The notes under the pieces are model-generated. The model was not told the origin of the DNA. It searched no databases and worked only from the letters and a program-made list of their open reading frames with translations. A program made the position numbers and the translations under genes. Below, one piece after another: positions 7,683 through 30,301 of a stretch of 32,000 bases of DNA (its first letter is position 1; every line of letters starts with the position of its first letter). This DNA comes from Puniceicoccales bacterium (GTDB taxonomy: Bacteria; Verrucomicrobiota; Verrucomicrobiia; Opitutales; JAIRLG01): the NCBI GenBank assembly GCA_031288595.1, contig JAITRB010000011.1, positions 1 through 32,000 on the forward strand, written 5' to 3'.

Positions 7683-8753
7683 ATGGATTTGCGTATAGTT
7701 TTGTTCCTCCATCTATGGGGAGCTCTGGCCTGCGCCGAACCCTTTTTCGTCGAGGTACCGTCAGAGAAAGCGAATAGTCCGCCTATCCTTGAATTCACGG
7801 AAACGGGAAAACAGATCACCCGAATCTTGCGATTGGAAGAGGACATAAAACCCAAGGAATTCATCGCCTATGCCACCCACCGTCCTTCCTGTACTCCGTG
7901 TACGTCCTGGCAAGAAGACGGCGGAGATCTGGGGCTCAAATGCCCCCCCGAAGACCTCTACGACACCCTGCAAAGGTGTGGCTGGATCGACGAGAGATCT
8001 CTCTCAGCTGCTTCCTATTTCGGCTGCATCATCATCTTGGGCGGGACGATTCCGGGCATGCGCAACCGTATTCACTTGATCCTTCGCCTGTTGCGCGAGC
8101 AGAAAATTCTCGGCGAACCGAAGATATGCTTTTTGACCAGCGAAAGGCCGTTGACGGCCTACGATGGCAAGGGATTTTCTCAAGAGCTTCAGGAGCATGG
8201 CTGCAGTGCCACGGAATCCAGTGCGGCCCACTATCTGTGGGAGGGTATTGTCCCTTCCCGCTACGCCTTCAAGTGCGAGTTCATCAATACCATGAATGAA
8301 GATTCCCTCCAAAAGACCGGCACAAGGGAGATTCTAACTTCATGCATTCACTGGCTCAAGTCTCAGGCTGGTAGCAACTCCTGGCACATCCTTTTAGTGG
8401 GCAGCCAGCCCTGGCTCCAACATCAGAGATTGGTCTTCGAACATGTATTGCGCCAGTGTTTCCCTCAATTTTTCCAGGATGGCGGAATCCTGGAGATCAT
8501 CGGTATTCCGGCGCCGGCTATGTACTTCAGGAGCGGAGCGCGGCGTTCTGAGGCCTTCAAGATCAATGTATTATGGTCCAGCATTGCTCAAACCGTCGGC
8601 GAGGAATGGGAAATCCTAAAGCTCATGAACCCAGAGCTGCTCTTATCCCAAGCGGTCATCACTGCCGGATCGCAGGCAAATCCGACCGATGCTGCAGCCC
8701 CATATCCCTCAGCAGCGTTACCCCATCATTCTCCCTCGAGTGCAGATCAGTGA
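7683..8753 (+). CDS. secreted protein, possibly DUF218/YdcF (ElyC/SanA-like) fold
   Basis: 356 aa with a signal peptide (VLFLHLWGALACAEP). The blocks CIIILGGTIPGMRNRIHLILRLL, ATESSAAHYLW, INT..T.E and ILLVGSQPWLQHQRLVFE resemble the DUF218 pattern. The family call is from motif memory only. Confidence 0.5.
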   Translation: MDLRIVLFLHLWGALACAEPFFVEVPSEKANSPPILEFTETGKQITRILRLEEDIKPKEFIAYATHRPSCTPCTSWQEDGGDLGLKCPPEDLYDTLQRCGWIDERSLSAASYFGCIIILGGTIPGMRNRIHLILRLLREQKILGEPKICFLTSERPLTAYDGKGFSQELQEHGCSATESSAAHYLWEGIVPSRYAFKCEFINTMNEDSLQKTGTREILTSCIHWLKSQAGSNSWHILLVGSQPWLQHQRLVFEHVLRQCFPQFFQDGGILEIIGIPAPAMYFRSGARRSEAFKINVLWSSIAQTVGEEWEILKLMNPELLLSQAVITAGSQANPTDAAAPYPSAALPHHSPSSADQ

Positions 8754-9558: not shown

Positions 9559-11574
9559 CTACGCCGTAGCGCTCCTATCGAGATAATGCCCTGAACATCC
9601 GCAGCGATCTGCGACAGCCTGAGGCGGCCGACCGTTGATAAAATCATCCACTGAGCTGGTGTAGGCCATTTCCATATGAATATTGCAGGGGACACTGCTT
9701 TGCCGATCTTGTTGTCCAGGTTCCATTAGCGTATGCCTCACATTGAGTGCATTAACACTATGCGAAATAGTACACGAACCATCATCACCTATCTGCAGAG
9801 CAGCATGTATATGGTCCATCAAACCGAAGTCATATCGATTTTGAGCATTTCCTAAATGCTGAGAAGGAAGCACTGAAAAAGTACCAGATCCAGCCTGTCC
9901 TATGTAAGTTCTCAGAAAATTTTTCAGAACAGCAACGCGGTCGAGACCGTTTGCATTCGCCAATTGAGTGATCTGCTCCAAAATAAATTTTCGAGTCTCT
10001 TGTTTAGCGTTACTGCCGCGGGGCGATTCCAAGCTCTCTTTCCCTATGGTCAATGTGAAGGGACCGCGGAAAAGATCTATTTCGAAAAAACACTTTTCTG
10101 GGAAAACAGGCTTATCTTGTTTAAAAGTATCTTCCGTAATGGCGGTGTTCCAATCGATTTTGAAGTGTAAACTGTTCGATGAAATATACTTATCGCCCTT
10201 ATCATCCAGACGCCTCCCTTTGAGGGTTTCGTTTATATCTCTACAAAAAGCTTTCCCCAAGGGAGGGACCTTCTTCCGTGGTCCCAATGCCAATATAAGA
10301 TTACTTATTTCCGATGAGGTAGTGGCCAGGGTAGTCTCATTTTCTGCTCGTGCATTTTTTATATCAGCTCCTTCCCCTCGGGCAGTCTGAACTGCAGCTT
10401 GCTCTTCCAAGCCGTCAAACGCCGATACCAAAGATCGAATACTTCGATGTACATTTGTAGCTTGCCGTTTTACCGCTTCTTCGAAGCCCAGAGGCTCTCG
10501 TTGGAAAACCTCATCTGGCTCCCCCAGAGGGACTAGCTTTCCGCGGGCATCAAAAGCTCTCCCTTCCCCGCTGCGCATTATCTCGTTCAGGCTGTCGAGC
10601 TCAGCCGATAAGGCCTGGACTTGCTCTTTGATAGCATCTGTATCCGCAGCATCCGGAAGCCCTTGGAACCTGTTCTCCAGTCTCCTGAGTGTCAGATCAA
10701 GAGGAATGGGAGTCCCGTCGGACATCCTTTCTAGGGATGCACAAACCTCTCGACAGGCGTTCCGCCCACTTTTATAGCGATCTTTTTGCTCCGCTGTATC
10801 TCCTGGAATATCCGAGGAAGAAAATCCTGTGACTTGAGTTAGCGTCGACCTAGAGTCCTTCAGTTGCTGCTGAACACCTTGCAGGGACTCGGGGACTTCT
10901 TGAGCCTTGCTAAGCTGCTGTTTCAATTCTATGTCACGAGTAGCTAATGCATTCAATTTCTGAAATTTCTCGAAGAGTTGATTGAATTTCTGAAGTTTTT
11001 CTTCATTAACTTCACCATTGCCCAGGAGATAACGCGAGAGTGAATGGGCCAAATCGCTCTTGGGCGCGATGAGCTTTGCCAACCCGGGCAGAACTCCAAG
11101 CGTCACAATACTGCCGATCCAGCAGAGCACGCGCATACCCCAGATTTTAGCCTGGCCTTGGTTCTTGAAATCAGCCGAACGCTGAAGTTCTGCATGAAGT
11201 TCTGTGCCCTCGTCGACGAGCCGCCGGACGAGAACTGCAGAAATTTCTGTCCCGCCGGTTTCTCGGATTACATGTCGCGCCAAATCCTGCGTGATGAGAT
11301 GGATTGTCTGCTGAACGACAGCTCTATCTGCAGGGGCACGAGCGAGATCTTTTAAGCTCAATGTCCCCGACATAGCCGGCGGCTGGCTGGCAGCTTGGGC
11401 TCCCGACGGATTCCCGCCAGATTGCTGAAGCGCCGGCACTGCGCCTGTTCCGCTTGCTGCGATTGCTCCTGGCCGACTCCCAACTCCTTCTATTCTGCCT
11501 TCCATACCCTTCCCCTCAATTACCTCTACTTTGAGTTTAACATTTTCTTTCCCGTCGACAAGAAGTCTTTCCAT
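9559..11574 (-). CDS. large orphan protein: disordered N-terminus, one hydrophobic segment, long coiled-coil region, globular C-terminus
   Basis: 671-aa ORF with an ATG start and an AGGA about 13 nt upstream. GC is visibly lower than in neighbouring genes. It has a Gly/Ala/Ser/Pro-rich N-terminus, a hydrophobic stretch (IWGMRVLCWIGSIVTLGVLPGLAKLIA) and heptad-like helical segments. I recognise no family motif. Confidence 0.75.
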   Translation of the reverse strand: MERLLVDGKENVKLKVEVIEGKGMEGRIEGVGSRPGAIAASGTGAVPALQQSGGNPSGAQAASQPPAMSGTLSLKDLARAPADRAVVQQTIHLITQDLARHVIRETGGTEISAVLVRRLVDEGTELHAELQRSADFKNQGQAKIWGMRVLCWIGSIVTLGVLPGLAKLIAPKSDLAHSLSRYLLGNGEVNEEKLQKFNQLFEKFQKLNALATRDIELKQQLSKAQEVPESLQGVQQQLKDSRSTLTQVTGFSSSDIPGDTAEQKDRYKSGRNACREVCASLERMSDGTPIPLDLTLRRLENRFQGLPDAADTDAIKEQVQALSAELDSLNEIMRSGEGRAFDARGKLVPLGEPDEVFQREPLGFEEAVKRQATNVHRSIRSLVSAFDGLEEQAAVQTARGEGADIKNARAENETTLATTSSEISNLILALGPRKKVPPLGKAFCRDINETLKGRRLDDKGDKYISSNSLHFKIDWNTAITEDTFKQDKPVFPEKCFFEIDLFRGPFTLTIGKESLESPRGSNAKQETRKFILEQITQLANANGLDRVAVLKNFLRTYIGQAGSGTFSVLPSQHLGNAQNRYDFGLMDHIHAALQIGDDGSCTISHSVNALNVRHTLMEPGQQDRQSSVPCNIHMEMAYTSSVDDFINGRPPQAVADRCGCSGHYLDRSATA

Positions 11575-14032: not shown

Positions 14033-14530
14033 ATGAAAATTTCTGAAGAGGAGAAAAGGGAGAAACGCGAGAGCTTTGGGCTGAGGTTCCGCCTGCTCAT
14101 GGGTTACCACAACCTGACGCTCAAGGACATCGCCGCCGCGACGCAGAATGCGATTTCCACTGTCAGTACCTGGAAAAATGGCCGTATTCCCTCCTCTCCT
14201 GAGACGATCAAATGCCTGGCGAAACAGTTCCGTGTCAGCCCGGCCTTCCTCCTCTGCGGCTGCCATAACCATGTTCAGGGCCCCTTTCAGCGCGACTGGG
14301 AAGCTGTGTCCGCCTGTGTAGAGGGAAAAGCGGAAACAGATAAGCTCCCCTGCCCTGCCCCTCCTCTGTTGGCGGAGCAGATCTTGGCCCATCTAGAAGC
14401 CTACATCCGCAAGGCCTCAGCTTTTCCCTATCTTCTGGAACATCTGTGGATCCAGCTCCAAAAGGAGTTCCCCCTGGGGGACATCCCAGCTGCTCCGGAA
14501 GCGGGAGTGAATTTTTCCAAAAAAAATTGA
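14033..14530 (+). CDS. XRE-family HTH transcriptional regulator with C-terminal extension
   Basis: 165 aa. FGLRFRLLMGYHNLTLKDIAAATQNAISTVSTWKNGRIPSSPETIKCLAKQFRVSPAFLL fits the Cro/CI-type HTH pattern. No obvious SD, so it may be short-leadered. Confidence 0.75.
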   Translation: MKISEEEKREKRESFGLRFRLLMGYHNLTLKDIAAATQNAISTVSTWKNGRIPSSPETIKCLAKQFRVSPAFLLCGCHNHVQGPFQRDWEAVSACVEGKAETDKLPCPAPPLLAEQILAHLEAYIRKASAFPYLLEHLWIQLQKEFPLGDIPAAPEAGVNFSKKN

Positions 14531-14597
14531 ACGAAAGGAGAGGTTACTTCGTCTTATATAACGAAACCAGCGTTTCATATGGTTTTGTGGTTTGGAT

Positions 14598-14630
14598 CCG
14601 GTCACCTTCCCAGGTGGCCGGGTCTTTTTC
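14598..14630 (+). terminator. intrinsic terminator downstream of the XRE gene
   Basis: CCGGTCACC-ttccca-GGTGGCCGG (one G:U) followed by GTCTTTTTC. Confidence 0.6.
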
Positions 14631-14652
14631 TGAGGGTTGCTCGCTTTAGGAT

Positions 14653-15462
14653 TTACTCGTCCCGATCGTGCCAGCGGCAATCCGCAAGGGCTGAGGCAGG
14701 ACCGGTTTGATGGAGTACTCCCTGCGCGTCCTGATGTACGAGCAGGCTTCCGCCGGGCATGTGAAGATTGACGCTGTCGTCGCAAAGACCGAGCTTGTGG
14801 GCGACGGCAAAAGCAGCACAGGCACTGGAACCGGAAGCTAGGGTGTAGCCGGCTCCGCGCTCCCAAATCTGCAGCTCGATGTTCTTGCGGTCGCGCACGC
14901 GGATGAACTGCACATTCGTCTTCTGGGGGAAGAGAGGATGATTTTCGATCCGTGGGCCGTAGTGCCGGATGGCTTCCGGATCGATCACGGGAGAGCAGAT
15001 GACCGCATGGGGATTGCCCATAGAGACGGCATGCACTTCCAATGACTGTCCCTCCAAGTGGAGGAGCTGGTCGCAGGGCGATGGCAGCTGAAGGGTGTTC
15101 CATTGGGGAAGGCCCATTCTCGTCGTGATGTCGGTGTTGCCGGCATGACGGAAGCAGAGGACCTCGCCGGAGGGAACGCGAACGCTCAGAGAACTGGCCC
15201 GGCTGTAGCACTTATCCCAGAGAAAGCGCGCGAAGATGCGGATCCCATTGCCGCTCTTCTCCGCCTCCGAGCCATCCGGATTGAAAATTCTCAGCGGAAA
15301 GCAGTTGTTTTCCCTTTCGCCGCCGTAGAGCAGGCCATCCGAACCGATGCCGAAGTGCCGGTCGCAGACGCGGACGATGCTCTCCTTTGACGGCAGGGGA
15401 TTTTTTCTGGCATCCAGGACGAGGTAGTCGTTGCCGAGTGCGGTGTATTTATAAAAGAGCAT
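14653..15462 (-). CDS. dapF: diaminopimelate-epimerase-family protein with Ser at both catalytic Cys positions
   Basis: 269 aa with motifs YKYTALGNDYLVLD, IFNPDGSEAEKSGNGIRIFARF, VSMGNPHAV and WERGAGYTLASGSSACAAFAVA. It is collinear with E. coli DapF as remembered, but both active-site Cys positions are Ser. Confidence 0.8.
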   Translation of the reverse strand: MLFYKYTALGNDYLVLDARKNPLPSKESIVRVCDRHFGIGSDGLLYGGERENNCFPLRIFNPDGSEAEKSGNGIRIFARFLWDKCYSRASSLSVRVPSGEVLCFRHAGNTDITTRMGLPQWNTLQLPSPCDQLLHLEGQSLEVHAVSMGNPHAVICSPVIDPEAIRHYGPRIENHPLFPQKTNVQFIRVRDRKNIELQIWERGAGYTLASGSSACAAFAVAHKLGLCDDSVNLHMPGGSLLVHQDAQGVLHQTGPASALADCRWHDRDE

Positions 15463-15511: not shown

Positions 15512-15559
15512 AATTGCGCTTGCTCTAGAATTGCGCTTGTTCTAGAAGAAATTTCTTCG
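15512..15559. repeat. 17-bp tandem direct repeat plus adjacent 14-bp perfect palindrome in the dapF/MFS divergent promoter region
   Basis: AATTGCGCTTGCTCTAG (15512-15528) and AATTGCGCTTGTTCTAG (15529-15545) are followed by GAAGAAATTTCTTC (15546-15559). Confidence 0.7.
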
Positions 15560-18592: not shown

Positions 18593-21352
18593 ATGGATGT
18601 TGTATGGAATAGATCTAGAGGGGCATTCCTCGTATGTGTTGGGAGCACGCTCTTCGCCGTCCAGTCTTCGTCGGAGACAACAACGGTTTTCACTTCGGCC
18701 TATGGGGATACCGCTGAGGAAAAGATACTACACTTGGGTGAAATTTCAGAAGACTTTCTCGAAAAATATGCTCTCGAGGGAGATTCATGGAGTGAAGAGG
18801 ACAGTCCGGCAAAGTTGGTGATGCCGCAATCTGTTCCGAAACAGAAGCCGGATCCCTCGGCTCAGAAAAAGGCGAGCTCATCGATGGCACCGGAATCGAC
18901 ATCATCGCCCTCATCGGGTTCACCGAGATCGGCGAGGCCGGAACGCGCATCGAAGAGGGGCAATACCGAGATGAGAGGAGACGCTCCGAGAGCAAAGGGC
19001 GAAAAATCGTCGGTGGATGCGAAGAGGAAGGCGGCGCCTCCGGAAGAATCTTCAGGGAAGAGAAGACGGAAACGGGCATCGGCTGCGGAAGACTTCGATC
19101 CGGAGGCCGAGATGCGTTCATCGGATTCCCCGAGACCCAAAAGATCCAGACGGGCGAGACGAGCGAGCAGAGCCGCAGCCTATTCAGGCGATAGATCCGC
19201 ATCGCAAGCAGGGGGCTTTGTCTACGTATCGAAGAGCTATTATGCCGATGCAGGAGCTTTCTCTCAGGGGGGAGATGATGCTTCCTCTGCCTTCCCCTCA
19301 GCTCCCGAGGGAGGCTATGCTGATAGAACTGCTGATCCTTACGCTGTGCCTTCTTGGAACGATCAGGCGACTTGGGCCTCTAGCACGGGCGCTAATTCTT
19401 TCCCCTCAAGTGAGATGCCGATGGCCTACTGGGAGAACACCGGAGCCACTGACCCTTTCCTCAGCATCTCATCGGGTTATGGGGAGCATTCTTTTGCCCA
19501 GTCCTCGTCTTTCGGCAGCGCCAGCCACAGGGATCTTTCCTCTCCTCGGGAACTTTCTCCAGGCCACACGCAGGATGAGAGCAGGGCCACTCCTCCTTCC
19601 AATAGACCAGTAGGCGCGCCGGAAGCGAGGGTAGATTTCTCTTTTCCCCAAGTACCCTCTTCTGCACCCTATCCGTCTTATGGGGGCTATGGGGCTCCGG
19701 CAGATGTGCCGCCCTACCACGAGGCTCTGGTAATGCCCGTTCCGACCGGAGGTGGAATCGCGTTAAGCGAAGAACAGCTCCTAAAAATCGTCGATGCCCT
19801 CTGCAAGCGGCAAGACGCCGGAGACCCGCGACTGCAGCTTCCCGCAGATTCCCAATCGCCATCGGAAGAGCTATCAGGACAGCAACAGGGGCAAGAACGG
19901 GAACAGGCACCACTGAACAGAAGCCTGATCATGCACCTTTTGGAGACCTGGTTTCAGGAGCACGGCCAGGAATCCGAAGAGGGACAGCAGCTATTGCAGG
20001 AATTGGACGGATTTCTGGCGAAGTACCTGCCGAGAGAGGCCAAGGAAAGGGTTGTCATTCAGGAAGTGATCAAAGAGGTATATAGGGATCGATATGTCAC
20101 AGAAACTCCTGGTTCTGATGATGGAAACTGGAGGCAGTATGTCGATTTTTCACTGCCACCGACGCCAGAAGAATTCACGCAATTTTTCACGAGCAGCGAA
20201 CACGACGCTGCCGTCTTGACAGAAGTCTTTTTTAAAAGATGGCGAAGCATCGTAGAAGATTTGGGGATTTGGAGCCTCAAGCCCGACCTGAATTCTTTGG
20301 AGCGAAAACAATTAGAAGAGATCGTGGATCAATGGAAGAGGCTCGAGCAGAATAGCCAGAATGATGCCGCTCTGGCATTTAATTACGAAAAATTTAGGGG
20401 GAAAGGCATAGCGGCTTGGCGTAAGTTTGCTTGGGCGAGTCCCCTAGACGCTATATTTCCCGGTGATGAGGGAAAAGAGAAACGGGATCTGATTGAATTG
20501 TGCCTGCAGGAGGAAAGACAAGCGGAAGAAGTAGAAACTTTGATGAAAAGACAGGGAGAGCTGGAACAGCGGCTGTCTAATGAACCCTCTAATTCTGTAC
20601 TGAGTGACACGGCTATACGATCCATCATTTCGGCACTTCCGCTGAAGCGCTGTGAACAGGAAGAATGGATATTAAATAGAGCAAAAATGGCTCAAATGTT
20701 ACTGATAAAGCCGATTTTCGAAAAACTGCGCCAGTTAAAAAAAGAGAATAAGATGGCAGAAGCTGTACAGCTGTTCATCGAAAAAGCCATGATCCCTTTT
20801 GAGCGGGAAGCGGCAGAGAGAAGACGGAGAGAACTTGGAGATCCGAGTCTACATGAGTCGTTTTTGGCCAACGAGTGGTATATTTTGATGAACCATGAGA
20901 AGAGCGCCTTTGAGAACCTGAAAAGGATGTTCCTGAACAACCTCACCCTGTGGCAGAAACAAACCCTATCTCCAGAAAAACTGACCCAGTTTAAGGAAGC
21001 CCTTGAGGTGCTGGAGCGCTATCGTCGTTCTGCGACTTCAAGCGAAGAGATAAATTCAGGGGAAGAGTTGAGGTCGGCGGATCTACTCGCGTTGATAGAA
21101 ACTCTGGTAGAATGGCTGCGAGATGAATGGATGCAGGCTGAAGCTCAGAAAAAAAATAACATCATATCGGAACAGGCCTTATCGGATATGAAGGCTTTCC
21201 ATAAGACCTTCAAATGGATCTTGAACCCAAAATCCGAGTCTTTTCGGATGCCGGAAAAGCCAAAGCCTGGCGCTGCGCCATCGTTCCGGGGATCTCCGCC
21301 ACCACCGCCACCTCCTCCGCCGCCGCCTCCTCCTCCTTCTGGTGGTAAATAG
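18593..21352 (+). CDS. large orphan protein: hydrophobic N-terminus, disordered Ser/Pro/basic region with NLS-like clusters, helical C-terminal domain, terminal Pro14 tract
   Basis: 919-aa ORF behind an AT-rich upstream region. Basic clusters are GKRRRKRAS and PRPKRSRRARRAS. The helical, lower-GC C-terminal half ends in SFRGS-P14-SGGK. The Pro tract at 21296-21337 uses mixed CCN codons. Confidence 0.8.
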   Translation: MDVVWNRSRGAFLVCVGSTLFAVQSSSETTTVFTSAYGDTAEEKILHLGEISEDFLEKYALEGDSWSEEDSPAKLVMPQSVPKQKPDPSAQKKASSSMAPESTSSPSSGSPRSARPERASKRGNTEMRGDAPRAKGEKSSVDAKRKAAPPEESSGKRRRKRASAAEDFDPEAEMRSSDSPRPKRSRRARRASRAAAYSGDRSASQAGGFVYVSKSYYADAGAFSQGGDDASSAFPSAPEGGYADRTADPYAVPSWNDQATWASSTGANSFPSSEMPMAYWENTGATDPFLSISSGYGEHSFAQSSSFGSASHRDLSSPRELSPGHTQDESRATPPSNRPVGAPEARVDFSFPQVPSSAPYPSYGGYGAPADVPPYHEALVMPVPTGGGIALSEEQLLKIVDALCKRQDAGDPRLQLPADSQSPSEELSGQQQGQEREQAPLNRSLIMHLLETWFQEHGQESEEGQQLLQELDGFLAKYLPREAKERVVIQEVIKEVYRDRYVTETPGSDDGNWRQYVDFSLPPTPEEFTQFFTSSEHDAAVLTEVFFKRWRSIVEDLGIWSLKPDLNSLERKQLEEIVDQWKRLEQNSQNDAALAFNYEKFRGKGIAAWRKFAWASPLDAIFPGDEGKEKRDLIELCLQEERQAEEVETLMKRQGELEQRLSNEPSNSVLSDTAIRSIISALPLKRCEQEEWILNRAKMAQMLLIKPIFEKLRQLKKENKMAEAVQLFIEKAMIPFEREAAERRRRELGDPSLHESFLANEWYILMNHEKSAFENLKRMFLNNLTLWQKQTLSPEKLTQFKEALEVLERYRRSATSSEEINSGEELRSADLLALIETLVEWLRDEWMQAEAQKKNNIISEQALSDMKAFHKTFKWILNPKSESFRMPEKPKPGAAPSFRGSPPPPPPPPPPPPPPSGGK

Positions 21353-21755: not shown

Positions 21756-22628
21756 TCACCCCAAAATGGAGAGCATTTCTCCGCGGTAGAAGCAGGTCAC
21801 GCGGCGAGTGCTCTGGGAAACGGCGATGGCGACGCATGGGATCAAGGAGGAGATGGCCGCCGCGGCTGCGTGGCGGGTTCCCAGGCCCAGAGGAAGTGAG
21901 ATATGGCAGACCTTGGGCGTCTGGATCATCATACCCGCCGCTTCGATGATCCCATCGCTGCGGATGATGAAGGCGCCATCGAGGGAGGAGAACTCCTTGA
22001 CCGTTTCGACGACAAAGGGATCGAGAATATTGCGCTGCTTCTCCGCGTGGCCGTGGAAGGGATTGAGGATGAGCGGGCAGGTATAGGGGCGGATCTGCTC
22101 GCTGTCCCCGAGGATGAAGAGGCAGCCGGTGGCCCTGCCTTCCCGACCCTCGACGGCGATTTCGGAGGCGACGGAGAGAACATTTGCCAGAACGGAAGGC
22201 TGCACTTCGGACGGCAGCGATTTCCCCTTTAACAGGGCCATCGACTCCATTTCATCTCTCACATCGACGAGTGCAATGGTGTCGAATGTGTTGCTTCCGG
22301 TGAGACCGGCGACGCAGCAGATCCTCTCATGAATGGAAAAAATGCCCCGGGTCGTCCCGATGACGATCGCGCTTCGCCGCTGGGAAAATCGCTGTGAGGT
22401 AATCGAGGCGACCTCGATGAGGTAATCGAAATGATCCTTTTCCGAAAAATCGACGGACTTCCGAGTCACGAGAACGATCTTTCCTTTTTCAAAGGAGAGA
22501 TTTAGGTCCTTCCACTCCACCATCGTATCGCCAAAAATCATCAGGGCAACACAATGAGCCACCTCGGCGATCTTCCCCGCTTCCTGGAAGATCAGATCGT
22601 TAAAACTATCCTTCCGGCATGGATTCAT
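21756..22628 (-). CDS. diadenylate cyclase (DAC domain) with a soluble N-terminal alpha/beta domain
   Basis: The C-terminal half has SLDGAFIIRSDG (DGA motif) and LGLGTRHAAAAAIS (a GTRHR-type motif, here RHA). The N-terminal ~150 aa have no TM helices. The start is trimmed to ATG 22628 because the longer ORF overlaps gmhA. Confidence 0.75.
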   Translation of the reverse strand: MNPCRKDSFNDLIFQEAGKIAEVAHCVALMIFGDTMVEWKDLNLSFEKGKIVLVTRKSVDFSEKDHFDYLIEVASITSQRFSQRRSAIVIGTTRGIFSIHERICCVAGLTGSNTFDTIALVDVRDEMESMALLKGKSLPSEVQPSVLANVLSVASEIAVEGREGRATGCLFILGDSEQIRPYTCPLILNPFHGHAEKQRNILDPFVVETVKEFSSLDGAFIIRSDGIIEAAGMMIQTPKVCHISLPLGLGTRHAAAAAISSLIPCVAIAVSQSTRRVTCFYRGEMLSILG

Positions 22629-22695
22629 GGGCGTATAGGTCAGCGAGGCGAATTTTAGCAGGGGAAAATTTTGGGAGCAAGGTCCAATTCCGCCA

Positions 22696-23325
22696 TTAGG
22701 CGAAAAAATATTGCTCCAGCATAGCGCAAAGGGTGTGGTAGATCGGCAGGTGCAATTCCTGGATCTTGTAGGTTTCCCGCTCCGGTGCACAGATGCAGAC
22801 ATCACAGAGGGCTTTCAGATGACCGCCGGTCTCGCCGGAAAGTCCGATGACCTTCATCCCTTTGGCTTGGGCGGTTCTGGCGGCCAGACATACATTCTTC
22901 GCATTGCCGGAAGTGCTGATGCCCCAGAGAATGTCTTCGGGATGGCCAAAGGCCCAGGTCAGCTGGGCAAAGGTATAGGATGGGTCGCAGTCATTGGCGT
23001 AGGCCGTAGCGATGGCGACAAAATCCGGCAGCGCCAGAGCCGGCAGTGCGCCCTGCAAATTTCTGGCCAACTCGTCTCCCAGGAGCCTGTGCCCTTCCTC
23101 TGGCAGGGACCGTGGGCAGCGAAAGCCCTTCAGCAACTCACCGGCAATATGGCCGCAATCCGCCGCACTCCCACCATTGCCACAGAGCAGGAGCTTCCCT
23201 TTTTTCTGAAAGGCGAGGCGCAGGCAGTCGTAGGCCCCTTCGATCTCCGACCGACAGGACGCCAGGCAGGGATAGCGCCGCAGACAATCCTCTAAAATGG
23301 CTAGAACGGACGGTAGAAATTCCAC
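22696..23325 (-). CDS. gmhA: SIS-domain phosphoheptose isomerase
   Basis: Motifs KGKLLLCGNGGSAADCGHIAGEL and GISTSGNAKNV, with a length of 209 aa. GTG start. Confidence 0.8.
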   Translation of the reverse strand: MEFLPSVLAILEDCLRRYPCLASCRSEIEGAYDCLRLAFQKKGKLLLCGNGGSAADCGHIAGELLKGFRCPRSLPEEGHRLLGDELARNLQGALPALALPDFVAIATAYANDCDPSYTFAQLTWAFGHPEDILWGISTSGNAKNVCLAARTAQAKGMKVIGLSGETGGHLKALCDVCICAPERETYKIQELHLPIYHTLCAMLEQYFFA

Positions 23326-23518: not shown

Positions 23519-25393
23519 ATGGATAACGCATCGGAATCGATTTTCAAAAAGCATCCGGTTCTGGCTCAGGAACAGGAGAAGGTGAAACGCATGATGGCAG
23601 GGGCCTATTGCCTGCACGCCAGCTGGGGATTGGGCAAGATTCAGCTCTACGATGCGGTGTTGGATCGCTTTGTCCTTGACTTTGAAGCGGGGCCGAAAAA
23701 CCACCTGATGGAGCCGGAATTCTGCGTTCGGAAGCTGGAGATCCTGGATGAGCAGCACCTGTTGGTCCGCTTTCAGCAGGATCCCGATGGGCTGAAGAAG
23801 CAGATCAAAGAGGATCCTATTGGTCCGATCCTGCAGATGATGAAGGAAAACCAACAGACGCAGATCCTCGCGAGCGAGATCGAGCGCCACTTCAGGCCCA
23901 TCATCGGTGTCTCCGCCTATCGCAGCTGGTGGAATCGCACCCAGAAGCTCATGGCGGAAGATGGGCGCATCCGGCCGCTAGAGGGAAAGATCAACACCTT
24001 CGTCCTCTGCGAAGAGCCCATGGATGTGGTCGCCGAGCTGCTTTGCCAGTTCGACCTGCACCGCGAGGCGATTGGGAAAATTTCCGTTCTGGAAAAAGTT
24101 CTTCGGCTCTCGGAGGAGCATCGCCTGGGGCTCATCGACCACATTCCGCTCTTCGTCAAGGCACTGCAGGCGGCCATCACCGGTGATTCCCCACTGCCCA
24201 TCGCCAAAAAACTGCAGGCCTGTTTCCTCCGTGACCGCCTCTTCCAAATCCAGGGAGAAAGCGCGGATTTCGTCGAGCCATCGGCCAAGTCGATCTTGCT
24301 CGAGGCCGGCAATCATCTCAGTCCACTGGCAGAGGCATTACCTCCTCACTACAGTGCCCAGTTTCTGAACCTCGTGGCTTGTGCCTATCCCGACGAATGG
24401 GAGGAGCGCTGTGCGCAGCTGCTGAGAAACAGCTCGGAGAAATTCATCAGTGACTGCGTGGCGTTCTTCATGGAACGCGGCTGTGGCGACGTCGTCGCTG
24501 CCTACTTCCTGCGCTGGTTGCGGGAGCATACGATGAAGGCGCCGGTGCTCCACTGGATACTCAAGAACCGCCATGCGCGCCGCTTCGCCGATGTCATCGA
24601 TGGGCAGCTCATAGGGGTTGCGCTCCTGCGGGCCATTTTTCGCGCGGTGGACATGGAAGCCGTACATCTCTCGGGCAACAAGCGCATCCCTCTCGCGGAG
24701 CTCCTGAGCAAGGATTACAATCTGATCCCCGACCTCCTGGCCGATGCTTCGGCCGAGGAGGCCCGCGACCTGGCCCAGATGCTGTGGACCAGCCAGGGAT
24801 TCAATGCCCTGACCAAGAAATCGCTCCTGGCGCGCTTCATCAAGCTCTTCCCCCAGGTCCAGAGCCTGCTCATGAAGGATGTCCAGAGGGACGTCGAGGA
24901 GCAGGAAACCCTAAAGGTGTCACCGGAAAGCCTAGAGGCCAAGCGGCGGGAATACGAAGACCTCCTCTCGCGCCGGATTCCGGAGAACAAGCGGGCGATT
25001 CAGATTGCTAAGGAGGAAGGAGATTTGCGGGAAAACTCCGAGTACAAGATGGCCCGCCAGGATCAGGAAACGCTCCTGGCCCTCAGGGCCCAGCTGGAGA
25101 AGGATTTGGCCCGGGCCCAGGTCATCCGCTTCGAAGAGGCCGATACCAGCAGCGTTTCCATCGGCTCCACCGTGACCCTGCGCCATCGCGACACTCAGAA
25201 AAGCGAGACTTTCTCCATACTCGGAGCTTGGGACGGCAATCCGGACAAGAACATCCTCTCCTACCGTTCGCCGCTGGGAAAGGACCTCATGGGCAAGAAG
25301 TTGGGCCAGACGGTTCTTCGGGCCAACGGTCAAGAGATCGACGAGTGGATCATCGAGTCCATCGGCCGCTGGGTCGATCGGGAGAAGTGCTGA
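23519..25393 (+). CDS. greA: GreA-family transcript cleavage factor with a ~460-aa N-terminal extension
   Basis: The C-terminal ~160 aa carry the Gre coiled-coil (REYEDLLSRRIPENKRAIQIAKEEGDLRENSEYKMARQDQETL) and a C-terminal globular domain (VSIGSTVTLRH..FSILGAWD..ISYRSPLGKDLMGKKLGQTV). Confidence 0.85.
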   Translation: MDNASESIFKKHPVLAQEQEKVKRMMAGAYCLHASWGLGKIQLYDAVLDRFVLDFEAGPKNHLMEPEFCVRKLEILDEQHLLVRFQQDPDGLKKQIKEDPIGPILQMMKENQQTQILASEIERHFRPIIGVSAYRSWWNRTQKLMAEDGRIRPLEGKINTFVLCEEPMDVVAELLCQFDLHREAIGKISVLEKVLRLSEEHRLGLIDHIPLFVKALQAAITGDSPLPIAKKLQACFLRDRLFQIQGESADFVEPSAKSILLEAGNHLSPLAEALPPHYSAQFLNLVACAYPDEWEERCAQLLRNSSEKFISDCVAFFMERGCGDVVAAYFLRWLREHTMKAPVLHWILKNRHARRFADVIDGQLIGVALLRAIFRAVDMEAVHLSGNKRIPLAELLSKDYNLIPDLLADASAEEARDLAQMLWTSQGFNALTKKSLLARFIKLFPQVQSLLMKDVQRDVEEQETLKVSPESLEAKRREYEDLLSRRIPENKRAIQIAKEEGDLRENSEYKMARQDQETLLALRAQLEKDLARAQVIRFEEADTSSVSIGSTVTLRHRDTQKSETFSILGAWDGNPDKNILSYRSPLGKDLMGKKLGQTVLRANGQEIDEWIIESIGRWVDREKC

Positions 25394-28156: not shown

Positions 28157-30301
28157 ATGTCACATTCCAACGATTTGAAAGCCTCAGCCCTTCCTCTCGG
28201 CCAGAAGGGAGATGAGGCTGCCCTCTGCGGGCAGATTTACCAGATTTTCCTGGAGGCCGGACGGACAACTGGAGAATACGAGAGCTCCCAGGCCTGGGAG
28301 TTGGCCCGCGAAGTCCTGTCAAAGCTGTGGGAAAAGACCGCTTCTGGTGTCGAGATCACTCCAGCCGTCATCGAGGAGAATATCGAGGATTGTCTGATGC
28401 GCTCGACGTTTTTACTGACCGCCAAGACCTTCATCATCGCCCGCGACCGCCGCTCCCACTTACCGGAGATTTCACACCAGAAGGAGCTCGAGAACGTCGA
28501 CCAGTACCTCTCGCGCTCGGACTGGAAGGTGCGGGAAAACAGCAACATGTCCTACTCACTACAGGGACTGAACAATTACCTCTCCGCTGAGATAAGCCAG
28601 AACTATTGGCTCTACCGCGTCTATCCGCAAAAAATACGCGAGGCCCACGAATCCGGCGATTTCCACATCCATGACCTGAGCCAGCTGTCCGTCTACTGCG
28701 TGGGTTGGGACTTGGCCGATCTTCTGCGAGAGGGTTTCCGCGGTGTTGTCGGTAAGCTGGAGGCCCAGCCGCCAAAGCACTTTAGGACGGCCCTAGGGCA
28801 GGTGGTGAACTTCTTCTACACCCTGCAGGGGGAAGCGGCCGGCGCCCAGGCCTTTTCCAACTTCGACACCCTTCTGGCTCCTTTCATTCGCCATGACCAG
28901 CTGGATGAGGCCCGGGTGGAACAGGCCCTACAGGAGTTCGTCTTCAACATCAATGTCCCGACACGGGTTGGTTTCCAGACGCCCTTCACCAACATCACCT
29001 TGGATTTCTTCTGTCCCAAACACCTGGCTGCCGAGCCGGTGATTATCGGCGGGGAGTTACAGTCCATGACCTATGGGGAATTCCAGGAAGAGATGAATGT
29101 CTTCAATCGGGCGCTCTTTCGGGTGATGACCCGGGGGGATGCCCGCGGACGGGTCATGACCTTTCCGATTCCGACGATCAATCTGAGCAAGGATTTCGAC
29201 TGGGACAATCCCAACCTGCGCGGTCTCTGGGAAATGACCGGCAAATACGGCATTCCCTACTTCTCGAACTTCATCAATTCCGACATGAAGCCGGAGGATA
29301 CGCGTTCGATGTGTTGCCGTCTGCGCATCGACAATACACAACTGGAAAAGCGCGGTGGCGGGCTATTTGGAGCCAATCCTCTGACCGGCAGCATCGGCGT
29401 CGTGACCATCAATCTCCCCCGCGTCGGTTACCTAGCCCAGAGTCAAGCGGAGTTCTTCGATCGCCTGGGACAGCTGATGGACCTCGCCAAGGAGAGCCTG
29501 GAGATCAAGCGCAGCTTTCTGGAGCAGCTGAGCGAGCGCAATCTCTATCCCTACATCTCCTTCTACCTCGGACGAATCAAGGAGCGGTTCGGCCATTACT
29601 GGCAGAATCACTTCTCGACCATCGGTCTTGTCGGGATGAACGAAGCCTGTCTGAATTTCCTCGGCGAGCCCATCACCAGTGAGGAGGGTAAGGCCTTCGC
29701 CCTTAAAGTTCTGGATTTCATGCGCGAGCGACTGCTCCAGTATCAGACCCAAACGGGACACCACTACAACCTGGAAGCCACACCAGCGGAGGGAACCTCC
29801 TATCGCCTGGCCCGCAAGGATAAGCAATGCTTTGGGGATGCGATTGAGGCGGCCAACGACACTACGTGCGGCGCCAGTGGTGGAGTGCCCTTCTATACCA
29901 ATTCCGTCCACGTGCCGGTCAATCATACGGATGATCTTTTTGGCCTTCTCGATCATCAGGATGATCTGCAGACGAAATTCACCGGTGGTACCGTCGTGCA
30001 TCTCTTTCTGGGTGAGCGCCTAGAAGATCCCGAGGTCGTAAAGGGATTGGTCCGAAAGGTCGCGGAGAACTACCATCTGCCCTATTTCTCCCTCACGCCG
30101 ACCTTTTCCGTCTGTCCGGACCACGGCTATCTCCCCGGAGAACAGCCCCGCTGCTCCCGCTGTGACAAAACGACGGAGGTCTATTCCCGCGTCGTCGGTT
30201 ACTTGAGGCCTGTTCAGCAATGGAATGATGGGAAACAGGCAGAATTTAACCTGAGGAAAGAGCTGAAGTTCGCACAAGCTGAAGTTGCAGATTGTTCGTA
30301 A
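28157..30301 (+). CDS. nrdD: anaerobic (class III) ribonucleoside-triphosphate reductase
   Basis: 714 aa. It has the active-site block TRSMCCRLRID, a C-terminal zinc ribbon (CPDHGY..CSRCD) and a glycyl-radical motif (YSRVVGYLRPVQQWNDGK). Confidence 0.92.
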   Translation: MSHSNDLKASALPLGQKGDEAALCGQIYQIFLEAGRTTGEYESSQAWELAREVLSKLWEKTASGVEITPAVIEENIEDCLMRSTFLLTAKTFIIARDRRSHLPEISHQKELENVDQYLSRSDWKVRENSNMSYSLQGLNNYLSAEISQNYWLYRVYPQKIREAHESGDFHIHDLSQLSVYCVGWDLADLLREGFRGVVGKLEAQPPKHFRTALGQVVNFFYTLQGEAAGAQAFSNFDTLLAPFIRHDQLDEARVEQALQEFVFNINVPTRVGFQTPFTNITLDFFCPKHLAAEPVIIGGELQSMTYGEFQEEMNVFNRALFRVMTRGDARGRVMTFPIPTINLSKDFDWDNPNLRGLWEMTGKYGIPYFSNFINSDMKPEDTRSMCCRLRIDNTQLEKRGGGLFGANPLTGSIGVVTINLPRVGYLAQSQAEFFDRLGQLMDLAKESLEIKRSFLEQLSERNLYPYISFYLGRIKERFGHYWQNHFSTIGLVGMNEACLNFLGEPITSEEGKAFALKVLDFMRERLLQYQTQTGHHYNLEATPAEGTSYRLARKDKQCFGDAIEAANDTTCGASGGVPFYTNSVHVPVNHTDDLFGLLDHQDDLQTKFTGGTVVHLFLGERLEDPEVVKGLVRKVAENYHLPYFSLTPTFSVCPDHGYLPGEQPRCSRCDKTTEVYSRVVGYLRPVQQWNDGKQAEFNLRKELKFAQAEVADCS

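What the first reader, a model, noticed from the sequence alone, without database searches (positions are those of the whole stretch)
14653..15462. DapF homologue with both catalytic cysteines replaced by serine
Every DapF landmark is present (GNDY, NPDGSE, SMGNPH, ERGAGYT). However, E. coli NADGSEVAQCGNG reads NPDGSEAEKSGNG here, and ERGAGETQACGSGACA reads ERGAGYTLASGSSACA. These two positions are the thiol/thiolate pair (Cys73/Cys217) that carries out the two-base epimerisation. I re-read the codons on the minus strand. They are AGC and TCC, two different serine codon families, each one substitution away from a Cys codon. This argues against a single sequencing slip. The window also encodes a peptidoglycan amidase and MreBC, so meso-DAP or an alternative should be needed. 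The protein may be a repurposed isomerase, a pseudoenzyme or an unusual Ser-based catalyst.
Basis: partly seen in the sequence, partly recalled or inferred. Interest (0 to 1): 0.6.

Follow-up and report, generated by a model that had tools for sequence, protein, structure and literature searches.

The report
Serine-serine diaminopimelate epimerase (DapF)
The gene is an intact cell-wall enzyme (diaminopimelate epimerase) whose two "essential" catalytic cysteines are both serine; this is a conserved, order-wide variant in Opitutales/Puniceicoccales bacteria, and it belongs to a Ser/Ser enzyme type first reported as active in 2025, so it is real and unusual but not new.

Summary
ORF 14653-15462 (-) is a full-length DapF (TIGR00652, 219.8 bits against a cut-off of 114.65). 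Ser70 (AGC) and Ser210 (TCC) sit exactly where H. influenzae has Cys73 and Cys217.

It is not an error or gene decay:
- The Ser/Ser pair is present in 34 of 37 genomes of the same order (Opitutales/Puniceicoccales).
- It is present in all 121 closest database proteins and in 135 of the 150 best 50%-identity cluster representatives.
- These proteins form one clade.
- Every DAP-binding residue is kept, and dN/dS is 0.24.

It is the only DapF homologue in this 0.78-Mb genome, which keeps dapA, dapB, a DapL-like transaminase and a meso-DAP-type MurE. No lysA was found. Free-living relatives have dapL and a lysA-like gene, no ddh, and only this DapF. Elsewhere, Ser/Ser DapF domains are fused to LysA, MurE-like ligase, alanine racemase and an aminotransferase.

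The best reading is therefore a working Ser/Ser DAP epimerase that supplies meso-DAP for peptidoglycan. This enzyme type was published by Lamer et al., J Mol Biol 2025 (cited in PMC13728532), so I file this as a new member of a known kind. The apparent order-wide displacement of the native Cys/Cys DapF may be an incremental addition. This scan had already flagged Ser/Ser DapFs in other genomes.

The parts
14653..15462 (-). dapF coding sequence (269 codons plus TAA stop), Ser/Ser-type diaminopimelate epimerase
15253..15255 (-). Codon AGC = Ser70, at the position of catalytic Cys73 of H. influenzae DapF. It is preceded by the clade-typical Lys69 (EKSGNG).
14833..14835 (-). Codon TCC = Ser210, at the position of catalytic Cys217. 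It lies in the clade signature YTLASGSS.
15007..15015 (-). Asn150-Pro151-His152 (GNPH). It corresponds to Asn157/His159 of H. influenzae DapF and is conserved in both Ser/Ser and Cys/Cys types.
14857..14862 (-). Glu201-Arg202 (ERG). It corresponds to Glu208/Arg209 (substrate binding / catalytic dyad partner) and is invariant.

Best explanation
This is the organism's working diaminopimelate epimerase, of the Ser/Ser type. It keeps the two-domain DapF fold and the whole DAP-binding pocket. [quoted passage not shown] By inference these act as the acid/base pair that inverts the alpha-carbon of LL-DAP to give meso-DAP. In this reduced (0.78 Mb) termite-gut Puniceicoccales genome the product feeds a meso-DAP-type MurE for peptidoglycan rather than lysine synthesis, since no lysA was found. 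The Ser/Ser form is the only DapF homologue found in nearly all Opitutales genomes searched, and it appears to have displaced the Cys/Cys DapF that is typical of the rest of the class. Shown here: residue identity, fold, conservation, distribution and pathway context. Inferred: catalytic activity, taken from context and from the published activity of other Ser/Ser DapFs, and the exact proton-transfer chemistry.
For: (1) The protein scores above the curated cut-off for the DapF equivalog model, and the model has the DapF fold.
(2) The DAP-binding and dyad residues N11, N61, G71, N72, N150, H152, N183, E201, R202 and G211 are conserved in both the Ser/Ser set and the Cys/Cys set.
(3) Ser/Ser occurs in 38 genome loci, 121 of 121 nearest proteins and 135 of 150 representatives. 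These form one clade (SH-aLRT 92; 98 when the single Ser/Cys sequence is included).
(4) dN/dS is 0.24 against the same-genus orthologue. Serine is kept across switches between the AGY and TCN codon families: position 70 is AGY in 34 and TCN in 4; position 210 is TCN in 34 and AGC in 4.
(5) Each genome has a single DapF-family hit, so the Ser/Ser and Cys/Cys types are mutually exclusive within the order.
(6) G000 has dapA, dapB, a DapL-like transaminase (NF004937, 516 bits, below its 585 cut-off) and a MurE with the DNPR motif. No lysA or ddh was found.
(7) Free-living Ser/Ser relatives have dapL, a lysA-like gene (250-260 bits, below the 297.9 cut-off) and no ddh, so they need an epimerase.
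(8) No lysA match was found in any of the seven reduced genomes (0.8-1.3 Mb, five families). All seven keep this DapF: six as Ser/Ser and one, G022, as Ser/Cys.
(9) Ser/Ser DapF domains are fused to LysA-type decarboxylase, a MurE-like Mur ligase (8 cluster members), alanine racemase and an aminotransferase.
(10) Literature: Lamer et al. 2025 report DapFs with two catalytic serines and the same fold, and Ser-to-Cys replacement inactivates the Anabaena enzyme (as cited in PMC13728532). Opitutaceae contain DAP and peptidoglycan sacculi (PMC5303756).
Against: No activity data exist for this protein or for any Opitutales orthologue. I could not read Lamer et al. or obtain their sequences, so kinship with the characterised Anabaena Ser/Ser enzyme is untested. 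In H. influenzae DapF, single Cys-to-Ser mutants are used to hinder catalysis (PMC12039745), so activity depends on the clade's other changes. The DapL-like and lysA-like hits fall below their curated cut-offs. G000 is only 91% complete. The DAP isomer in Opitutales peptidoglycan has not been determined.
Confidence: 0.8

Rival explanations
1. It is a repurposed or broadened isomerase. The Ser/Ser pocket acts on another substrate, or on DAP plus a second substrate. One candidate is glutamate, as in the bifunctional chlamydial DapF, since no MurI or D-amino-acid transaminase was found in this genome.
For: No MurI hit was found in any of five Opitutales genomes. No Dat-like hit was found in G000 or G006. 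G000 has only one alanine-racemase-fold protein. PVC bacteria are reported to lack MurI, and chlamydial DapF makes D-Glu (PMC5885031). Ser/Ser homologues also occur in Streptomyces, Micromonospora and the Pseudomonas syringae group, where they may serve other pathways; whether they are extra copies there was not checked.
Against: The DAP-binding residues are fully conserved. The protein scores 60 bits against a 350-bit cut-off for the bifunctional chlamydial model NF038284. The chlamydial racemase activity needs the cysteines. The fusions and pathway context point to DAP. Gene neighbours in Opitutales are housekeeping genes, not a biosynthetic cluster.
Confidence: 0.1
2. It is a catalytically dead pseudoenzyme kept for a non-catalytic role, such as DAP binding or sensing, or partner activation as with E. 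coli DapF-RppH. Epimerisation would then be done by another enzyme or not at all.
For: Single Cys-to-Ser mutants of canonical DapF are catalytically hindered. E. coli lacking dapF grows normally through a weak side activity (PMC13759103). DAP content of Opitutaceae is about ten-fold lower than in E. coli.
Against: The catalytic-site geometry and dyad residues (H152, E201) are invariant, and both positions are serine in every member of the Ser/Ser sets examined rather than drifting. The gene is retained in seven reduced genomes that have no lysA match. No second DapF-family gene and no ddh were found. Published Ser/Ser DapFs are active. The reduced genome has no spare racemase beyond one Alr.
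Confidence: 0.07
3. It is a sequencing or assembly error, or a decaying pseudogene in a shrinking genome.
For: The genome is a reduced, fragmented assembly (20 contigs, 91% complete).
Against: The frame is intact. The same residues appear in independent assemblies of three same-genus genomes and in well over a hundred other sequences. dN/dS is 0.24.
Confidence: 0.01

Closest known systems
Ser/Ser diaminopimelate epimerases of Lamer et al., J Mol Biol 437:169375 (2025), e.g. the second DapF of Anabaena sp. YBS01 (known to me only through PMC13728532)
   Same: DapF fold, with serine at both catalytic positions and the DAP pocket kept. By context it has the same job, LL- to meso-DAP.
   Different: In Anabaena it is a second copy beside a Cys/Cys DapF. 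Here, and in nearly all Opitutales genomes searched, it is the only DapF homologue. Sequence kinship to the characterised enzyme could not be tested. The host is an anaerobe-type gut symbiont (NrdD in the window), so the oxidative-stress rationale suggested in PMC13728532 is not an obvious fit.
Canonical Cys/Cys DapF (H. influenzae 1gqz/2gke, E. coli 4ijz, cyanobacterial 9mro)
   Same: 34-38% identity, TM 0.82-0.91, the same two-domain fold, the same substrate-binding residues and the same His/Glu dyad.
   Different: Cys73 and Cys217 are Ser. The third conserved Cys (CGNGxRC, 99% of Cys/Cys sequences) is Ile. Other clade-specific changes are Lys69 (for Met/Gln), Tyr206 (for Glu), Ser213 (for Gly, 100%), Tyr6, Gln185, Ile199 and Met235.
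Verrucomicrobial/chlamydial-type Cys/Cys DapF (RTYERGVExETLACGTG), including bifunctional chlamydial DapF (NF038284)
   Same: Same family and the same pathway (DapL route). It is the type found in the other orders of the class and in two Opitutales genomes.
   Different: Only 28-35% identical to this protein. It is a separate clade with cysteines retained. The NF038284 score here is 60 bits against a cut-off of 350.
Cofactor-independent racemases with one Cys replaced (EcL-DER Thr/Cys aspartate/glutamate racemase; Cys/Thr 3-hydroxyproline dehydratase)
   Same: A hydroxyl side chain sits at a two-base racemase catalytic position (PMC8142540; 6r76 appears among distant fold hits).
   Different: Those enzymes replace one residue and become unidirectional or change reaction type. 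Here both residues are Ser, and the context calls for a reversible epimerase.

Membership tests
DapF, diaminopimelate epimerase (TIGR00652 / PF01678) | Score above the curated cut-off of the equivalog model, with two DAP_epimerase domains | tested here: met
   219.8 bits against 114.65; PF01678 matches twice
DapF, diaminopimelate epimerase (TIGR00652 / PF01678) | Two-domain pseudo-symmetric fold, with catalytic residues at the N-termini of two facing helices | tested here: met
   AF2 pLDDT 94.7; TM 0.91 to 9mro and 0.85 to 1gqz; helices start at residues 71 and 211
DapF, diaminopimelate epimerase (TIGR00652 / PF01678) | DAP-binding residues and His/Glu dyad (H. influenzae N11, N64, G74, N75, N157, H159, N190, E208, R209, G218, S219; this list is from my knowledge of the structures, with H and E named in PMC5885031) | tested here: met
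   N11, N61, G71, N72, N150, H152, N183, E201, R202, G211 and S212 align and are conserved across the clade
DapF, diaminopimelate epimerase (TIGR00652 / PF01678) | Cys/Cys catalytic pair | tested here: not met
   Ser70 and Ser210. This feature is no longer strictly defining since Lamer et al. 2025.
DapF, diaminopimelate epimerase (TIGR00652 / PF01678) | Interconversion of LL- and meso-DAP | not testable with these tools
   Only indirect support: it is the sole homologue beside dapA, dapB, a DapL-like gene and murE, plus the fusions
Ser/Ser DapF (Lamer et al. 2025) | Serine at both catalytic positions in an otherwise intact DapF | tested here: met
Ser/Ser DapF (Lamer et al. 2025) | Sequence kinship with the characterised Ser/Ser enzymes (e.g. 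Anabaena sp. YBS01) | not testable with these tools
   The paper is not held. No Ser/Ser structure turned up in the PDB copy. No cyanobacterial name appeared among the 30 clusters looked up.
Bifunctional chlamydial DapF / glutamate racemase (NF038284) | Score above the model's cut-off, with catalytic cysteines required for racemase activity | tested here: not met
   60.4 bits against 350; no cysteines at the sites
PhzF / proline-racemase-like relatives of the fold | Closer structural or sequence match than to DapF | tested here: not met
   TM 0.64-0.77 and 10-16% identity, against 0.82-0.91 and 34-38% for DapF

The most novel reading that the evidence does not exclude
In this MurI-less and Dat-less 0.78-Mb genome, the Ser/Ser DapF is the only cofactor-independent amino-acid epimerase. 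It might then supply both meso-DAP and D-glutamate, as chlamydial DapF does, but with serine chemistry. This would sit on top of an order-wide horizontal displacement of the native Cys/Cys DapF in Opitutales.
Probability: 0.1. Interest if true: 0.6.

Novelty: new member of a known kind. Interest (0 to 1): 0.3.

Why it matters
DapF is a textbook two-cysteine enzyme and an antibiotic target attacked with thiol-reactive inhibitors. A cysteine-free form that serves as the sole DapF homologue of most of a bacterial order shows that the chemistry is not obligatory, and that such inhibitors would miss these organisms. The principle was published in 2025, so the added value here is limited to three points. 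(i) In Opitutales/Puniceicoccales the Ser/Ser form is not a spare copy but the only one found, and it appears to have replaced the lineage's own Cys/Cys enzyme. (ii) It survives extreme genome reduction together with a DAP-for-peptidoglycan-only pathway. (iii) There is a short list of co-varying residues (Lys69, Ile76, Tyr206, Ser213) to test for pKa tuning. It also warns annotators and screens that "missing catalytic Cys" in DapF does not mean a dead enzyme.

Tried and rejected
- **Sequencing error or pseudogene:** rejected, because the residues are conserved across independent assemblies and dN/dS is 0.24.
- **A second canonical dapF in the genome:** none found. TIGR00652 gives one hit in G000, and there is one DapF-family hit per genome in 37 order members.
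- **Bypass by meso-DAP dehydrogenase:** no ddh in the five genomes tested.
- **Other cysteines taking over:** only Cys33 is conserved. It lies in helix 1 and is shared with the Cys/Cys cyanobacterial DapF.
- **Operon context:** uninformative. Neighbours in the window are an HTH protein, an MFS transporter, TGT and RadC. There is no conserved synteny over 30 relatives' loci.
- **The search for related loci on genome contigs:** it spent its one scan on generic MGNPH-type patterns and returned mostly distant Cys/Cys DapFs. These were still useful as an outgroup.
- **Reading Lamer et al. 2025:** the paper is not held.
- **Finding the Anabaena Ser/Ser sequence:** three cluster look-ups gave no cyanobacterial name.
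- **"C130/D131 shared invariant":** I judge this a gap-column artefact (not checked further) and do not use it.

Full report
**Observation.** The minus-strand ORF 14653-15462 encodes 269 residues. It matches Pfam DAP_epimerase twice (E 8.6e-49). It scores 219.8 bits on the NCBIfam DapF equivalog TIGR00652, whose cut-off is 114.65. The phmmer alignment to solved DapFs puts Ser70 on Cys73 and Ser210 on Cys217 of the H. influenzae enzyme. The crystallised C73S and C217S mutants (2q9h, 2q9j) are among the top hits. The codons are AGC (15255-15253) and TCC (14835-14833). An AlphaFold2 model built on 27 clade members has pLDDT 94.7. It superposes on the cyanobacterial DapF 9mro at TM 0.91 and on the H. 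influenzae and E. coli enzymes at 0.82-0.86. The two serines lie just before helices 71-83 and 211-223, the two facing helices that carry the catalytic pair in DapF.

**Not an accident of one gene.** The window comes from a 783,735-bp, 20-contig assembly estimated at 91% complete. Database names of the nearest proteins place it in Puniceicoccales/Opitutales (Verrucomicrobiota), in line with earlier scan notes.
- I extracted the DapF homologue from 37 genomes of the same order. Of these, 34 are Ser/Ser with a near-invariant signature (EKSGNG ... WERGAGYTLASGSS), one reduced genome (G022) is Ser/Cys, and two (G019, G040) are Cys/Cys.
- All 121 best hits in the 5.8-billion-protein collection are Ser/Ser.
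- 135 of the 150 best representatives of 50%-identity clusters are Ser/Ser.
- A maximum-likelihood tree of 97 sequences needs a single change to explain the Ser/Ser state (SH-aLRT 92; 98 for Ser/Ser plus the one Ser/Cys row).
- Against the same-genus orthologue, dN/dS is 0.24.
- Within the clade, position 70 is AGY in 34 sequences and TCN in 4. Position 210 is TCN in 34 and AGC in 4. Serine was therefore kept through two-step switches between codon families.

**Displacement pattern.** Other orders of the same class, and two Opitutales genomes, carry a different Cys/Cys DapF (RTYERGVExETLACGTG) that is only 28-35% identical to this protein. The Ser/Ser type is closer to DapFs of other phyla, at roughly 35-43% identity. 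Each Opitutales genome gave only one DapF-family match, so the two types are mutually exclusive there. The Ser/Ser clade also includes three genomes of other classes of the phylum and a MAG labelled Kofleriaceae. Source names for other Ser/Ser clusters include Streptomyces, Micromonospora, Jatrophihabitans, the Pseudomonas syringae group, a Lachnospiraceae MAG, SAR324 and Prosthecobacter. The simplest reading is that an Opitutales ancestor acquired a Ser/Ser DapF horizontally and lost the native enzyme. This is an inference from an unrooted tree.

**What it does.** The residues that bind DAP and assist the catalytic pair in canonical DapF are all present: N11, N61, G71, N72, N150, H152, N183, E201, R202, G211 and S212. 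All but S212, which alternates Ser/Thr, are conserved in both the Ser/Ser and the Cys/Cys sets.

The pathway context supports a working epimerase:
- The own genome has dapA and dapB above cut-off.
- It has a full-length transaminase whose best model is LL-DAP aminotransferase NF004937 (516 bits, below the 585 cut-off).
- Its MurE carries the DNPR motif of meso-DAP-adding ligases. That motif meaning is from established knowledge; the motif itself was seen.
- No lysA and no meso-DAP dehydrogenase were found.
- Free-living Ser/Ser relatives (G035 at 4.5 Mb, G020 at 2.6 Mb) have dapL above cut-off, a lysA-like gene (250-260 bits, below the 297.9 cut-off) and no ddh. Lysine and peptidoglycan synthesis in them therefore needs an epimerase, and this is the only DapF-family candidate found.
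- No lysA match was found in any of seven reduced genomes from five families. All seven keep this DapF. That fits a role in making meso-DAP for the wall.
- In metagenomic proteins, Ser/Ser DapF domains are fused to LysA-type decarboxylases (three cases), a MurE-like ligase (a cluster of eight members on separate contigs, annotated as the DAP-adding ligase), alanine racemase (two cases) and a class I/II aminotransferase. Some single-member fusions could be gene-calling artefacts.
- Opitutaceae have been shown to contain DAP and sacculi. That paper lists a DapF in the pathway without remarking on its active site (PMC5303756).

[quoted passage not shown] According to that summary, some DapF enzymes use two catalytic serines on the same fold. 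Anabaena sp. YBS01 has one Cys/Cys and one Ser/Ser DapF. Changing the serines to cysteines inactivates the Ser/Ser enzyme (PMC13728532). The principle is therefore published. I could not read the paper itself, so I do not know whether Verrucomicrobia were covered, or whether the characterised enzymes fall in this clade.

In canonical DapF, single Cys-to-Ser changes hinder catalysis (PMC12039745). The clade's co-varying residues are thus candidates for tuning: Lys69 (for Met/Gln), Ile76 (for the third conserved Cys, 99%), Tyr206 (for Glu), Ser213 (for Gly, 100%), plus Tyr6, Gln185, Ile199 and Met235. The suggested oxidative-stress rationale is not an obvious fit here, because the window encodes an anaerobic ribonucleotide reductase and the source is reportedly a termite gut.

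**Rivals.** A dead pseudoenzyme, a repurposed or bifunctional isomerase, and an error are weighed in the Rival explanations section. The one open thread concerns D-glutamate. No MurI was found in five Opitutales genomes. No D-amino-acid transaminase-like gene was found in the two reduced genomes tested. Only one alanine-racemase-fold protein was found in G000. The source of D-Glu in this genome is therefore unexplained. A chlamydia-like second activity of DapF (PMC5885031) cannot be excluded, although the protein fails the chlamydial model.

**Verdict.** This is a new member of a known kind. Interest is modest: the finding would have been striking before 2025, and what remains is the order-wide sole-copy status and its retention under genome reduction. 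Earlier notes of this scan had flagged Ser/Ser DapFs in other genomes and called the clade unrecognised. The literature found here qualifies that.

Noticed in passing
window 15512-15559: The divergent 114-bp spacer between dapF and the MFS transporter gene holds two head-to-tail copies of a 17-bp unit (TTGCGCTTG[C/T]TCTAGAA). A 14-bp palindrome (GAAGAAATTTCTTC) follows. This may be an operator. An earlier scan note (e1-2723176) also flagged it.
   Followed up: partly
window 14595-14634: A perfect 13-bp GC-rich hairpin followed by a T-run lies between the convergent HTH gene (14033-14530 +) and dapF. It looks like a terminator for the + strand gene. The spacer folds at z = -3.4.
   Followed up: partly
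whole genome G000 (and G006): No glutamate racemase (TIGR00067) and no D-amino-acid transaminase-like gene were found, and there is only one alanine-racemase-fold protein. The source of D-Glu for peptidoglycan is unexplained.
   Followed up: partly
P0141, P0197, P0212, P0207, P0167, P0263, P0215 (database proteins): Natural fusions of Ser/Ser DapF domains with LysA-type decarboxylase, MurE-like Mur ligase, alanine racemase and a class I/II aminotransferase. There are also fusions with a methyltransferase (P0177) and GGACT (P0155).
   Followed up: partly
L118 (G022:C6, same order, 0.9-Mb genome): A Ser/Cys hybrid DapF (AEMSGNG / SSCGSG) sits on a very long branch as sister to the Ser/Ser clade. 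It could be an intermediate or a partial reversion. A Pseudomonadota MAG (L035) shows the converse, Cys/Ser.
   Followed up: no
L032 (JAWKQX010000003.1, MAG labelled Kofleriaceae) and P0086 (nr: Prosthecobacter sp.): Ser/Ser DapFs of the Opitutales type appear in records labelled with other taxa. The cause could be horizontal transfer or mislabelled bins.
   Followed up: no
window 9559-11574 (-), 18593-21352 (+), 7683-8753 (+): Three long ORFs (671, 919 and 356 aa) have no Pfam match at E <= 0.001 (0.0001 for the 356-aa ORF) in a strongly reduced genome.
   Followed up: no
window 21756-22805 (-): A diadenylate cyclase (DAC domain) with a DacZ_P sensor domain. So c-di-AMP signalling is kept in a 0.78-Mb genome.
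   Followed up: no
window 23519-25393 (+): A 624-aa protein whose GreA/GreB domains occupy only residues 467-599. The roughly 460-residue N-terminal extension has no Pfam match.
   Followed up: no
window 28157-30301 (+): An anaerobic ribonucleotide reductase NrdD (650 bits), which marks an anaerobic lifestyle.
   Followed up: no
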